Shown here: in pieces, positions 5,747 to 55,146 of the stretch
Layout: each line of letters begins with the position of its first letter
Numbering within the stretch: the stretch's first letter is position 1
Source of the DNA: Eledone cirrhosa
Taxonomy: Eukaryota
Length of the DNA: 64,000 nucleotides
Direction: 5' to 3'
Assembly: GCA_964016885.1 (NCBI GenBank)
Contig: OZ024745.1
Span: forward strand, 49,972,001-50,036,000
Made by a program: the position numbers and the translations under genes
Notes under the pieces: model-generated
Databases searched by the model: none
What the model was told of the DNA's origin: nothing
What the model saw: the letters and a program-made list of their open reading frames with translations, nothing else

Positions 5747-5793
5747 TGCTCCGAAGAATCCAAACCTCGGTTTGGAGGAAACAATTGTAAGCA
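5747..5793 (+). ncRNA. Minimal type I hammerhead with variant CCGAAGA core (5' pLTR)
   Basis: TGCT-CCGAAGA-(A)TCCAAACC TC GGTTTGGA(G)-GAAA-CAATTG-TA-AGCA. Confidence 0.75.
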
Positions 5794-6049
5794 AATAAGT
5801 GACTTAAACTGAACTTTGATTACTGTAATCTCTATATAACTGCTCTGTATAACAACTGATGTTATTACATTGAGCTATTTAACTTACTGGTAATAGGATA
5901 GTAATTAAAGACTATCTCTCACTATTTAGGGTTTGTGTATATATAATATATTACCATCAAAGGTTTTATTGCATACATAACCATAAATAGTACCCTTAAT
6001 ACTAATAACTGCTCCATTTTGTTGAGCTGATATACCATAAATTACCAGC

Positions 6050-8533
6050 ATGCTGATCAAAGACCAACTCCCTATGTCAACCAAGAACATACCTTTACCA
6101 ACCAAAAATACATATGAAAAGTTGTTGATCAACAGTGTAAACTCCTTTATCAATAGAGTGAGATGGAGGACATTCCATTATGATAGAAACAAATCTGGCA
6201 AGGATAATAACACCAACAAATTTGACTCCTTCGGCTTTAAAACATTTAGAAGCCCCCCTCATAACACACTATTAAACCTATTCGAAAACGACCTAATTAA
6301 ACTAGTTAAAAACATTAAATACAAAAAACACCATAATAAAAACAACACCTTCTTAAACAAACTTAGCACCTCTATTAATGACTTCAAAACTAGTAGTAAA
6401 ATTGTTGTACATGCCGACAAAACTAATAACATATACAGCCTAGATTATAATACGTATAGAAAGTTTATATATAATGAACTACATAAAAGCTACAAAAAAA
6501 CCACTATGAAAAACTTAGAAGATATTAATATGGAAGGCTATAATATAGTATCCAAACTAGGGCTCCAGAGACATACACAACCTTACACCCCAAACCCCCC
6601 TAGATTCTCTCTGAAGGACCATAAGGTAGACTTCATTAGCAACCCCTCGATTAGACTAATCTGCCCCTCCAGGTCTGACATTGGCATTATCAGTAAAAAA
6701 ATCCTAGACAAAATCATCCCACAGATTAAACACAAGATTTACCTTAAGCAATGGGGAAATACGGGTGAAGTGATTGAATGGTTCAAAAATATAATAGATA
6801 ACAAGGATAAAAAATGTATCCAATTTGATATCAACTCTTACTACACCTCTATTTCCCCTATCCTACTAAATAAGGCACTTATAATGGCCATGGACAATAG
6901 TGACTTGACTAGACCCCAGATTGATGTCATACTTGCGGCCCGTAAAACAATAATCACCTTTGAGGACCAATTATGGACCCGCAAGGATACGCAAAACAAC
7001 TTCGACATTACTATGGGGTCTAGTGACTCGGCGCAGGTCACTGATCTGGTTGGCCTATACTTACTTAACCTAATCCACAGGGAACTTCCGTACCTCAGCG
7101 GTGGTTTGTATCGCGATGATGCACTTCTACTTATAGACTATAAAAAATTCAATATAGAAAGGACTAGAAAACTATTGCACAAAACATTCAAAAACTTTAA
7201 CCTTAGTATTACCATGGACAAAAACACCAAAAACGTCAACTTCCTAGACGCCACACTCTACTTAGACTCAATGATATATGCACCTTTCCACAAACCTAAT
7301 GAAAAACTCATCTACGTAGATACCAAGTCTAACCACCCTAAATCTATATTGAACTCTATCTCTAAGGGAGTATCTAATAGAATCTCTAATCTATCCTATG
7401 ACATAAACACATTTAACAATAACTCGCAGTATTATAATCAGGCATTAGCTAGATCAGGCCATAATACAGGGATAGAGTTCCTACCTACAAAAACACATAG
7501 CTACAACATCATTTCACACAACATGTCCATGGGAAAATTTAATAATAAGAATAGCAACCGCACACACACTAATAGGGATTGTAACAACAAGAGTAACCCG
7601 CACCACAGAAATGACCATAGGAACATTAAAGGAAACAAATCACCAGACATAAAAAACAGAAATAGAAGAAGAAATAATACATTTTTCAACCCTCCTTTCA
7701 ATTTAAACGTCTCTACCAACCTTCCTAGGGCTTTCTTCTCACTACTAGATAAACACTTCCCATCCGGCCACAGGTACCACGGCCTTTTAAACAAAAACAC
7801 TATTAAGATCTCATACTCTACTACGCCTAACTTAGCATACCACATAGCTAGTACAAATAAAAGAAAAATTAATTCTTACTTCCAACAAACTAAATCACAA
7901 CGGTCGATAAACCTTCAAAATAACATTCAAAATGACAGTCAAAGTAACATTATAACAAATAACCGTAATATCAATGGAAATAGTAGTAATAGCACTAGTG
8001 TAAACATTAACGCTGCGTACCACAACCCGCATAACCATAACCCTATAGCTAACCTCCAACCTTCTACACAGCATAGTAACCGGCAGACTAGCACCCAGAG
8101 TAATTGTAACTGTAGATCAAGTAGAACCTGCCCTTTAGATAAAAAATGCTTAACCAAGGATATCATATACTCATGTACAGTCACTACTAACAGCTCTTCT
8201 GAAACCTACATAGGCTCCACTTCTAACTGCTTCAAAACTAGATACAATTCGCACCTCCACTCTTTCAAAAAACACAGTCTAGCCAACTCCACTTCACTAT
8301 CTAGCTACATACACTATCTAAAAACTAAAAATAAAATATATACACTTAAATGGGAAGTGGTAGGTAGTGTAACATCGTACAAACCACCTGATAAATTTTG
8401 TAACCTCTGTCTACTAGAGACCCATACTATCATCTTCTCTAAACATAATCTCCTTAATAAAAAATCAGAAGTGTTCGCAAATTGCCAACACCGCTTCCGA
8501 CACTCGTTCCAAAACTTTAAACCCTATATATAA
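6050..8533 (+). CDS. PLE polyprotein: reverse transcriptase + C-terminal GIY-YIG endonuclease (827 aa, intact; possibly Hydra clade)
   Basis: ADKT, LKDHK, IRLICPS, QFDINSYY, ITMGS, YRDD, VNFLD, SNHP; CNC-x5-CP linker; IIY..YIG, RY..H, KW, CNLC..E, LLNKKSE, CQH. The clade assignment is an inference from the CxC-x5-C linker and the microsatellite target. Confidence 0.93.
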   Translation: MLIKDQLPMSTKNIPLPTKNTYEKLLINSVNSFINRVRWRTFHYDRNKSGKDNNTNKFDSFGFKTFRSPPHNTLLNLFENDLIKLVKNIKYKKHHNKNNTFLNKLSTSINDFKTSSKIVVHADKTNNIYSLDYNTYRKFIYNELHKSYKKTTMKNLEDINMEGYNIVSKLGLQRHTQPYTPNPPRFSLKDHKVDFISNPSIRLICPSRSDIGIISKKILDKIIPQIKHKIYLKQWGNTGEVIEWFKNIIDNKDKKCIQFDINSYYTSISPILLNKALIMAMDNSDLTRPQIDVILAARKTIITFEDQLWTRKDTQNNFDITMGSSDSAQVTDLVGLYLLNLIHRELPYLSGGLYRDDALLLIDYKKFNIERTRKLLHKTFKNFNLSITMDKNTKNVNFLDATLYLDSMIYAPFHKPNEKLIYVDTKSNHPKSILNSISKGVSNRISNLSYDINTFNNNSQYYNQALARSGHNTGIEFLPTKTHSYNIISHNMSMGKFNNKNSNRTHTNRDCNNKSNPHHRNDHRNIKGNKSPDIKNRNRRRNNTFFNPPFNLNVSTNLPRAFFSLLDKHFPSGHRYHGLLNKNTIKISYSTTPNLAYHIASTNKRKINSYFQQTKSQRSINLQNNIQNDSQSNIITNNRNINGNSSNSTSVNINAAYHNPHNHNPIANLQPSTQHSNRQTSTQSNCNCRSSRTCPLDKKCLTKDIIYSCTVTTNSSSETYIGSTSNCFKTRYNSHLHSFKKHSLANSTSLSSYIHYLKTKNKIYTLKWEVVGSVTSYKPPDKFCNLCLLETHTIIFSKHNLLNKKSEVFANCQHRFRHSFQNFKPYI

Positions 8534-52500: not shown

Positions 52501-54668
52501 TATATATATATATATACATATATATATATATATATATATATACATATATATATATATATATACATATATATATATATATATATATACATATATATATATA
52601 TATATATATACATATTATATATATATATATACATATATATATATACATATATATATATATATATATATATATGCATATATATATATATATATACTATATA
52701 TATATATATATATATACATATATATATATATATACATATATATATATATATATACATATATATATATATATATATATACATATATATATATATATATACA
52801 TATATATATATATATATATATACATATATATATATATATATACATATATATATATATATATATATACATATATATATATATATATACATATATATATATA
52901 TATATACATATATATATATATATATATACATATATATATATATATATATATACATATATATATATATATATACATATATATATATATATATATATATATA
53001 TATATATATATATATATATATATATACATATATATATATATATATACATATATATATATATATACATATATATATATACATATATATATATATATATACA
53101 TATATATATATATATACATATATATATATATATATACATATATATATATACATATATATATATATATATACATATATATATATATATATACATATATATA
53201 TATATATACATATATATATATATACATATATATATATATACATATATATATATATACATATATATATATATACATATATATATATATACATATATATATA
53301 TATACATATATATATATATACATATATATACATATATATATATATACATATATATACATATATATATATATATATATACATATATATATATATATATACA
53401 TATATATATATATACATATATATATATATACATATATATATATATACATATATATATATATACATATATATATATATACATATATATACATATATATATA
53501 TATATACATACATATATATATACATATATACATATATATATATATACATATATATATATATACATATATATACATATATATATATATACATATATATATA
53601 TATACATATATATATATACATATATATACATATATATATATATATACATATATATACATATATATATATATATACATATATACATATATATACATATATA
53701 TACATATATATACATATATATACATATATATACATATATATACATATATATACATATATATATATATACATATATATATATATATACATATATATATATA
53801 TATACATATATATACATATATACATATATATACATATATACATATATATACATATATATACATATATATATATATATACATATATATATACATATACATA
53901 TATATATACATATATATATATATATATATACATATATATATATATATACATATATATATACATATACATATATATATACATATATATATATATATATATA
54001 CATATATATATATATATACATATATATATATATATACATATATATATATATATACATATATATATATATATATATATATATATATATATATACATATATA
54101 CATATATATATATATATATATATATATATATATATACATATACATATATACATATATATACATATACATATATACATATATATACATATACATATATACA
54201 TATATATATATATATACATATATATATATATATATATATACATATATACATATATATATATATATATATATATATATACATATATACATATATATATATA
54301 TATATATACATATATACATATATATATATATATATATACATATATATATATACATATATACATATATATATATACATATATACATATATATATATATATA
54401 TATATATATACATATATACATATATATATATATATATATATATATACATATATATATATATATATATATATACATATATATATATATACATATATATATA
54501 TATACATACATATATACATACATATATATATATATACAGATATATATATATATACATATATATATATATATATACATATATATATATATATACATATATA
54601 TATATATATACATATATATATATATATATACATATATACATATATATATATATATATACATATATATA
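49583..54668. repeat. ~5.1-kb interrupted (TA)n array
   Basis: Direct inspection. Confidence 0.97.
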
Positions 54669-55146
54669 GTATTAGTTATACTATTTATGGTTATGTAAAT
54701 ACAAAACCTTAAGCAGTTGTAAGTATTTTACACACACCCTAAATAGTGGTAGGCAGTATTGTATTACTACCTTATTACCAGTAGGTTAAGTAGCTCAATG
54801 TAAAAACATCAGATGATTTACAGAGCAGTTATATGAAATATAAGAATCAAAGAACTGCTTATCTTCATGTATTTTAACCTATATTTTTGATTTTTGATTG
54901 TACCTATTAATATAAATGTAATCTCGAAGTGTGTACTGCCACTCTAAATTCTGTAATGAATGTTGACCCACAATGTTTGAATATGTATTGGTATGTCTCT
55001 CGGCTGAAAAGGAGGTCATATAACTGTCCATGCATTAATAAATTGCTCCGAAGAATCCAAACCTCGGTTTGGAGGAAACAGCTGTAAGCACAATAATGTT
55101 TTGAACAGTTCTTTGATTCTTATATTTCATATATTTCATATTTCAT
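54669..55146. mobile_element. Second copy of the non-autonomous PLE derivative
   Basis: 54669-54856 matches 41241-41428. After an inversion junction at ~54856 the sequence is the reverse complement of ~41400-41697. Same right end as 41935. Confidence 0.82.
55044..55090 (+). ncRNA. Minimal type I hammerhead, CCGAAGA core, CAGCTG stem III
   Basis: Identical to 41833-41879. Confidence 0.75.

What the first reader, a model, noticed from the sequence alone, without database searches (positions are those of the whole stretch)
5747..55090. Variant-core (CCGAAGA) hammerhead conserved between an intact Penelope-like element and its non-coding derivatives, with a palindrome-preserving change in stem III
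Seen: the 47-nt motif TGCT-CCGAAGA-stem II-GAAA-palindrome-TA-AGCA occurs at 5747, 10071, 41833 and 55044 (+) and at 41445 (-, damaged). The flanks differ visibly between the two subfamilies, yet the motif is identical except CAATTG vs CAGCTG, a double change that keeps the palindrome. Known: PLE pseudo-LTRs carry minimal type I hammerheads whose palindromic stem III lets tandem copies cleave as dimers. Inference: U4 of the canonical CUGANGA core is C in every copy, so this looks like a selected natural U4C variant that strict motif searches would miss. The two pLTR copies 4.3 kb apart could pair to release a unit-length, circularisable element RNA.
Basis: partly seen in the sequence, partly recalled or inferred. 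Interest (0 to 1): 0.85.

Follow-up and report, generated by a model that had tools for sequence, protein, structure and literature searches.

The report
Variant-core hammerhead in active Penelope-like retrotransposon
Thousands of copies of a recently spreading jumping gene in this animal genome carry a hammerhead-shaped RNA motif in which a normally fixed core letter (U4) is C, and it likely acts as a slowed self-cutter that only works in pairs, though cutting is untested and appears not to be needed for each new insertion.

Summary
Observation confirmed; interpretation partly. The 47-nt motif lies at all five stated places. It is the hammerhead of a Hydra-clade Penelope-like element (827-aa RT plus GIY-YIG ORF), with 3,749 exact core copies genome-wide. 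C4 is the commonest letter in 12 of 12 subfamilies. U4 copies (129) are about as rare as catalytically dead G5A copies (105), as CpG decay predicts. Stems II and III show double-sided changes, and N7, H17 and loop 2 vary as in hammerheads. Related elements from metagenomes (55 motifs) and the published Hydra elements all have U4. Corrections: the CAGCTG copies are not non-coding derivatives but truncated or inverted pieces of a younger autonomous subfamily with an intact 832-aa frame. Against the cleave-and-circularise model: insertion 5' ends do not pile up at the cut site (2 of 78), and three insertions carry mutated cores in both repeats. Natural U4C is already known from a viroid, where it is slower in vitro. 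I found no report of it fixed in an animal retroelement lineage. Cleavage is untested. Verdict: new variant of a known kind.

The parts
5491..5833 (+). Upstream pseudo-LTR of a full-length Hydra-clade PLE (subfamily S1), preceded by an AT microsatellite
   Evidence: 99.1% identical to 9814-10157, 3 differences
5747..5793 (+). Type I hammerhead motif, CCGAAGA core, A.G mismatch at 10.1/11.1, stem III CAATTG, predicted cut after 5789
6050..8533 (+). Intact 827-aa ORF, RT then GIY-YIG endonuclease, with Hydra-clade motifs (RWR, DKT, YRDD, CxCx5C, CxxC, CxH; no CCHH)
   Evidence: clade definition in PMC8557442 section 11
9814..10157 (+). Downstream pseudo-LTR; the element ends 44 nt after the predicted cut, in (CT)n(TA)n
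10071..10117 (+). Second hammerhead motif, identical to the first; predicted cut after 10113
41238..41822 (-). Inverted 5'-truncated fragment of autonomous subfamily S2 (-374 to +211 from the cut); holds the motif at 41445-41490 with one base missing in stem III
   Evidence: 99.1% to natural tandem copy L409
41825..41922 (+). Direct 3'-end fragment of S2 (-50 to +47) with the motif at 41833-41879 (CAGCTG)
   Evidence: 100% to L409
54666..54857 (-). Inverted S2 5'-UTR fragment (+20 to +211), no motif
   Evidence: 98.4% to L409
54858..55133 (+). Direct 3'-end fragment of S2 (-249 to +47) with the motif at 55044-55090 (CAGCTG)
   Evidence: 91.9% to L409, with a gap

Best explanation
The motif is the pseudo-LTR hammerhead of a recently spreading Hydra-clade Penelope-like retrotransposon lineage in which core position 4 is C instead of U, and it likely works as a slowed ribozyme that would cut after GUA/GUC only when two copies pair through their palindromic stem III. 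Shown: element identity, copy number, C4 as lineage state, the stem and palindrome pattern, and continuity of inserted copies across the cut site. Inferred: two motifs in one transcript form the domain-swapped double hammerhead; U4C and the unpaired 10.1/11.1 lower the rate; so most RNA reaching the reverse transcriptase is uncut (or occasionally cut and rejoined), which keeps the priming region about 44 nt downstream of the cut attached. Cleavage would be an occasional processing step kept over lineage time, not a requirement for each insertion.
For: Same place (about 200-300 nt before the ORF, or after it) and same architecture as the U4 hammerheads of relatives: 55 sense-strand motifs in 46 of 78 metagenome loci, all CUGA, none C4, with position 4 left free; shuffled control 0.6 hits per pass. 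All 26 Hydra rows (25 families) of PMC8557442 File S2 are ctga. N7 varies (A in 8, U in 4 subfamilies), H17 is A or C and never G, and loop 2 has 0 of 4 invariant columns. On 15 distinct representatives 95% of cells pair, 4 pairs change on both sides, and the covariation score is 0.189 against 0.131 shuffled (0 of 500). All five stem III forms are self-complementary (-3.4 to -11.1 kcal/mol). For S2 the active dimer is the cofold minimum (-35.1). U4 129 against G5A 105, p=0.13, and U4 copies are scattered over subfamilies. U4C is reported slow in vitro but sufficient in vivo in a viroid (PMC3088659 passage). PLE hammerheads cut weakly and as dimers (PMC4209133).
Against: No cleavage or RNA-end data. 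CUGA-turn mutants had low activity with no second-site rescue in a pairwise scan of another hammerhead (PMC9901934). Two departures together (C4 and unpaired 10.1/11.1) on a 4-bp stem I could abolish activity. For S1 the active dimer (-31.0) lies above the cofold minimum (-32.3). Insertions with A4 (L490) or G5A (L493, L494) in both direct repeats exist. Invariance of G5, A6, G8, A9 and GAAA among older subfamilies is partly built in, because the search patterns fixed those letters. The shuffle control ignores relatedness.
Confidence: 0.58

Rival explanations
1. The motif no longer cuts. It descends from a hammerhead and is kept as a folded or dimerising landmark that the element's protein binds just upstream of where reverse transcription starts.
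For: Element 3' ends sit about 44-47 nt after the site. No excess of 5' ends at the site, 2 of 78 within 10 nt against about 1.7 expected. Mutated cores were mobilised. In the anole PLE, hammerhead mutants insert normally and no RNA ends map to the site (PMC11167929). CUGA mutants are poor (PMC9901934).
Against: H17 alternates only between A and C and N7 is free, the pattern cleavage imposes. The anole hammerhead is also dispensable yet does cut. A viroid U4C cuts.
Confidence: 0.27
2. The motif is a fully active hammerhead whose C4 is compensated by lineage-specific contacts or the element's protein. It cuts at both repeats and gives a unit-length circle that is copied more than once around.
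For: Copies run continuously across the site to more than 1.6 kb upstream. Rare core changes shared by both direct repeats (L490, L493, L494) show one template read twice, as a circle would give. The lineage is very successful: about 7,300 motif matches in four non-overlapping pattern classes.
Against: The shared changes include G5A, which should not cut. Template jumping, tandem read-through or gene conversion explain them equally well. I saw no covarying partner for loop 2 upstream by eye. Full-length linear cut products would leave 5' ends at the site, and none are enriched.
Confidence: 0.15

Closest known systems
Hammerheads of Hydra-clade Penelope-like elements (Craig et al. 2021, PMC8557442, section 11 and File S2; includes Hydra-1_Obim)
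   Same: Type I motif in the pseudo-LTR near the 3' end, palindromic stem III, often an unpaired 10.1/11.1 (U.U in many listed rows), (TA)n targeting, same protein motifs.
   Different: All 26 listed Hydra rows have CUGA; they were found with a canonical descriptor, so C4 could not appear. This lineage has CCGA, a 4.2-4.3 kb unit instead of under 3 kb, and C.A, A.A, A.G or C.U at 10.1/11.1. Four motif strings of this family were not found in that supplement.
Minimal PLE hammerheads that cleave as dimers (Cervera and de la Pena 2014, PMC4209133; Lunse et al. 2017, not held, known only as cited in PMC6765202)
   Same: Short stem I, long stem II, palindromic stem III, tandem and inverted arrangement, low expected activity.
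   Different: Their consensus keeps U4 and G10.1-C11.1. The core variant described there is U3-A8, not C4.
Natural U4C hammerhead of a viroid (Ambros and Flores 1998, not held; as summarised in Perreault et al. 2011, PMC3088659)
   Same: Same substitution in the uridine turn.
   Different: There it is a variant of a plant viroid hammerhead with reduced in vitro activity. Here it is the majority state of at least 12 subfamilies and thousands of copies of an animal retrotransposon, in a dimer-dependent minimal scaffold.
CYGANGA descriptor hits in deep-sea RNA viromes (PMC13481778, 2026)
   Same: C/U degeneracy at position 4 is allowed and reported.
   Different: Predicted viral motifs. The type I descriptor requires G10.1-C11.1 and a 2-bp stem III, so it would still miss this motif for lack of G10.1-C11.1. 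No retroelement link in the passages seen.

Membership tests
Hydra-clade PLE | Single ORF, RT with C-terminal GIY-YIG endonuclease | tested here: met
   827 aa; YRDD at 354; IIY..YIG at 705-722. Pfam scan gave no hit; homologues carry PF26215
Hydra-clade PLE | RWK motif present, GxKF/Y not conserved, DKG changed to DKT | tested here: met
   RWR at 38, DKT at 123, no GxK[FY] match
Hydra-clade PLE | CxCx5C linker, no CCHH in the endonuclease, CxxC and CxH near its end | tested here: met
   CNCRSSRTC at 686, one Cys between IIY and YIG, CNLC at 784, CQH at 812
Hydra-clade PLE | Pseudo-LTRs, inverted 5'-truncated copies, (TA)n insertion | tested here: met
Hydra-clade PLE | Groups with published Hydra RTs in a tree | not tested
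   The tree held no published reference sequence and no outgroup
Neptune/Nematis PLE | CX2-5CxxC linker and CCHH motif | tested here: not met
   No C.{2,5}C..C match; no cysteine pair between GIY and YIG
Type I hammerhead ribozyme | Three-helix junction with stems I, II, III | tested here: met
   95% of cells paired, 4 pairs with double-sided change; stem III as an 8-bp dimer helix
Type I hammerhead ribozyme | C3, G5, A6, G8, A9, G12, A13, A14, A15.1, U16.1 kept; N7 free; H17 not G | tested here: met
   (12 of 12 clusters); invariance partly imposed by search patterns, but N7 and H17 were free in most
Type I hammerhead ribozyme | U4 of the CUGA turn | tested here: not met
   C in 3,749 copies, U in 27, A in 14, G in 11; tolerated in one viroid per PMC3088659
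Type I hammerhead ribozyme | Paired (usually G-C) 10.1-11.1 | tested here: not met
   A.G, C.A, A.A, C.U; also unpaired in many U4 relatives
Type I hammerhead ribozyme | Site-specific self-cleavage after NUH | not testable with these tools
   needs an in vitro assay or RNA-end data
Rfam hammerhead families | Match to a curated model | tested here: not met
   No hammerhead hit at E<=10 in 5600-5900
Non-LTR retrozyme / non-autonomous derivative | Non-coding small tandem unit carrying the hammerhead | tested here: not met
   CAGCTG copies belong to a subfamily with an intact 832-aa frame

The most novel reading that the evidence does not exclude
C4 is a selected brake. This lineage, and a second short repeat with different stems I and II that also has CCGA, keep an attenuated or alternatively folded hammerhead core against an easy CpG route back to U, because slow dimer cleavage balances an intact reverse-transcription template against occasional RNA circle formation. 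It would be a natural CCGA hammerhead class in animals, missed by standard searches, and a ready-made test of why Penelope-like elements keep weak ribozymes.
Probability: 0.25. Interest if true: 0.75.

Novelty: new variant of a known kind. Interest (0 to 1): 0.52.

Why it matters
What PLE hammerheads are for is open: they are conserved, weak in vitro, and dispensable for insertion in the one reconstituted system. Here an actively spreading lineage has a core substitution known to slow cleavage, holds it across many subfamilies, and supplies natural U4, A4, G4 and G5A copies for comparison. One assay of C4 against U4 in dimers, plus RNA-end mapping, would tell a tuned ribozyme from a structural relic. 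It also shows that statements that Hydra-clade hammerheads are all canonical, or that some PLEs lack hammerheads, depend on descriptors that fix U4 and G10.1-C11.1: about 7,300 motifs in this genome fall outside them.

Tried and rejected
Rfam: the whole-window scan listed only microsatellite-driven hits among the 150 shown of 644; the local scan gave no hammerhead. Pfam found no family for the ORF. The repeat finder was swamped by (TA)n. My first labels, Naiad and then Neptune, were dropped after the motif tests. Viral contigs: 29 pattern matches, none a relative. Sequencing runs: no RNA holder listed; four contig sets laid on the S2 repeat list no change at position 4 among the rows shown, but 60 rows were hidden, so I draw nothing from it. 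A pile-up of 5' ends at the cut was looked for and not found. A U4 subfamily was looked for and not found. A loop 2 pseudoknot with the upstream GGAGG was considered by eye and dropped, since it is not kept when loop 2 changes. An ORF link for the second CCGA family was sought in 20 extended loci: PLE ORF pieces occur in 7 but none directly abuts the motif in a consistent way. The RT tree (46 rows, midpoint root, no outgroup) puts the 8 close C4 rows in one supported clade, but two older own rows fall outside it and the nearest proteins have no DNA, so it cannot date the change. A possible U4 sister (L346) rests on one decayed hit about 950 nt before its ORF and was not confirmed.
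Full report
OBSERVATION. The motif is present at all five places, with predicted cuts after 5789, 10113, 41875 and 55086. The minus-strand copy (41445-41490) lacks one base of stem III. A 35-nt core has 3,749 exact matches in the 3.0-Gb own genome and the reversed control has 0. 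The host is probably an octopod; this is an inference from genome size, (TA)n content and a named Argonauta homologue.

THE ELEMENT. 5491-10157 is a full-length Penelope-like element: two 343-344-nt repeats that differ at 3 places around an 827-aa ORF. The protein has RWR, DKT, YRDD, a CxCx5C linker, a GIY-YIG-type domain without CCHH, and terminal CxxC and CxH. These are the features that define the Hydra clade in PMC8557442 (section 11 read). It fails the Neptune/Nematis linker test. The lineage is young: the best 100 of 38,322 candidates were scored and dozens share one score and an 832-aa open frame at 89% identity.

THE 'DERIVATIVES'. Copies found by protein alone show that the 832-aa subfamily carries the CAGCTG motif. 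The window's copies at 41.2-41.9 kb and 54.7-55.1 kb are 92-100% identical to pieces of a natural tandem copy of it (L409), arranged as an inverted truncated piece plus a direct 3' end. They are ordinary truncated insertions of an autonomous sister subfamily, not non-coding derivatives.

IS IT A HAMMERHEAD? Relatives at 30-40% protein identity were fetched from metagenomes (78 loci) and scanned with position 4 free. There were 55 sense-strand motifs in 46 loci, all CUGA and none C4, plus 4 stray hits with other cores; shuffles gave 0.6 hits per pass. They lie at the same place relative to the ORF and have palindromic stem III. Many have an unpaired 10.1/11.1 (U.U; C.A in L284), as do many published Hydra rows (File S2 read). 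Within the genome, N7 is A or U by subfamily, H17 is A or C, loop 2 has 0 of 4 invariant columns, and stem III is CAATTG, CAGTTG, CAGCTG, CGATTG or CGATCG. On 16 hand-picked representatives (15 distinct), 95% of cells pair and 4 of 15 pairs change on both sides; 0 of 500 shuffles reach the covariation score, but 29 of 500 reach the count of such pairs, and this control ignores kinship. Motif identity across 13 subfamilies is 82%, against 57-59% upstream and 72% downstream. The double-hammerhead dimer is the cofold minimum for S2 (-35.1 kcal/mol) and 1.3 kcal/mol above it for S1. Caveat: the patterns that found older subfamilies fixed most core letters, so their invariance is partly built in.

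IS C4 THE LINEAGE STATE? In the young core: C 3,749, U 27, A 14, G 11. With position 4 free in older classes: 90 of the first 100 listed of 1,126, 94 of the first 100 of 343 and 17 of 22 are C, counted by eye. C4-G5 is a CpG. U4 (129) and the dead G5A (105) occur at similar rates (p=0.13), and U4 copies are spread over subfamilies. By eye, U4 is somewhat over-represented in old subfamilies and G5A in young ones; I did not test this. Leaving out 60 loci picked by the position-4 searches (three later loci fetched for A4/G4 stayed in), C is commonest in 12 of 12 clusters from 301 copies. With those loci included, one 6-member cluster had U 4, C 2. C4 subfamilies are tied to ORFs down to 59-71% identity (L180, L193). 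A second repeat of about 370-400 nt, with a different stem I, a roughly 100-nt stem II and CGATCG, also has CCGA in 6 of the 7 copies with an intact core start, and CTGA in 1; 6 other rows were truncated or degraded. Its link to an ORF is not shown. Selection for C over U is plausible but not proven: 15 of 40 downstream flank columns are also invariant.

DOES IT CUT IN VIVO? No direct data. If cleavage set the template's 5' end, insertions should start at the site. Of 78 ORF-bearing copies kept (identity about 97% or more, duplicates and edge-limited alignments dropped by hand), 2 start within 10 nt of it, 14 in the 250 nt downstream and 27 in the 250 nt upstream, with a tail beyond 1.6 kb. 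Templates are therefore continuous across the site: uncut, or cut and rejoined. Three insertions, fetched because the listings suggested it, carry the same rare core change in both direct repeats (A4 in L490, G5A in L493 and L494). This points to one template read twice, or to gene conversion, and shows that a damaged core does not block mobilisation. It matches the anole PLE, where the hammerhead cuts but its mutants insert normally and no RNA ends map to the site (PMC11167929, part 1 and passages).

MECHANISM. Most likely (0.58): a slowed, dimer-dependent ribozyme; cleavage is occasional, which keeps the priming region about 44 nt downstream attached. Rivals: a non-cutting structural landmark (0.27) and a fully active, circle-making ribozyme (0.15). 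U4C is slow in vitro but viable in a viroid (PMC3088659 passages). CUGA mutants were poor and unrescued in a pairwise scan (PMC9901934 passages). PLE hammerheads are weak dimers (PMC4209133, parts 1-2 of 4; supplement searched by terms). That U4 stabilises the turn through a phosphate contact is taken from the PMC3088659 passage; how C would substitute is not known to me.

NOVELTY. Natural U4C is known from a viroid, and a 2026 virome survey uses CYGANGA (PMC13481778 passages). Searches for hammerhead with U4C, with octopus and Penelope, with Naiad, with short stem III and with CCGANGA-type strings gave no report of C4 fixed in a PLE lineage. Lunse 2017 and Ambros 1998 are not held, so I saw neither them nor their supplements, and the first could hold such motifs. 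Also seen as passages: PMC7229834, PMC6765202, PMC6962438, PMC3376415 and the preprint 10.64898/2026.07.22.740005 (part 1 and passages; its supplements are closed); none of those passages mentions C4. An earlier unchecked scan note reports a C4-containing core in a Euglena PLE-linked repeat, a lead only. Verdict: real, a new variant of a known kind, interest 0.52.

Noticed in passing
Motif position 10.2 (window 5759), genome-wide: This T is changed in 190 copies against 3,749 intact (4.8%), versus 1.4% at the CpG position 4, mostly to A or C. It is often shared by an inverted pair, and in L488 by the 3' and inverted copies but not the upstream repeat. It looks like a reverse-transcriptase error hotspot at the base of stem II, and suggests inverted copies are made from the first cDNA.
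   Followed up: partly
L362, L379-L408, L467-L486: A second repeat of about 370-400 nt with a CCGA hammerhead motif, 7-bp stem I, about 100-nt stem II and CGATCG. Its 5' end coincides with the first base of stem I in many copies and inversions start there; a candidate true non-autonomous element.
   Followed up: partly
L490, L493, L494: Both direct repeats of one insertion share a rare core change (A4 or G5A): a genomic hint of one RNA template read twice.
   Followed up: partly
window 5794-5799 and 10118-10123; most subfamilies: AATAAG/AATAAA/ATTAAA-like hexamer directly after stem I, about 35 nt before the element's 3' end; a possible polyadenylation signal that cleavage would cut off.
   Followed up: no
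L007, L017, L029, L146, L066, L068; L359-L361: At least three other repeat families in this genome carry canonical CUGANGA minimal hammerheads, one with the same CAGCTG palindrome.
   Followed up: no
L346:34-588 (-); L481, L471: More distant Hydra-like ORFs (38-49% identity) exist in the genome; their hammerhead state is unresolved.
   Followed up: partly
window 27203-27637 (-): An exon-like frame resembling the start of a fatty-acid transport / acyl-CoA synthetase protein (resemblance recalled, not tested); the downstream-numbered repeats may lie near or in a host gene.
   Followed up: no
window 55522-59492 (-), 11535-13822 (+), 3375-5168 (+), 694-1887 (+): Several LINE-type retroelements, one with an upstream frame bearing a CCCH-like motif and a 982-aa endonuclease-RT frame (labels recalled, not tested).
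   Followed up: no
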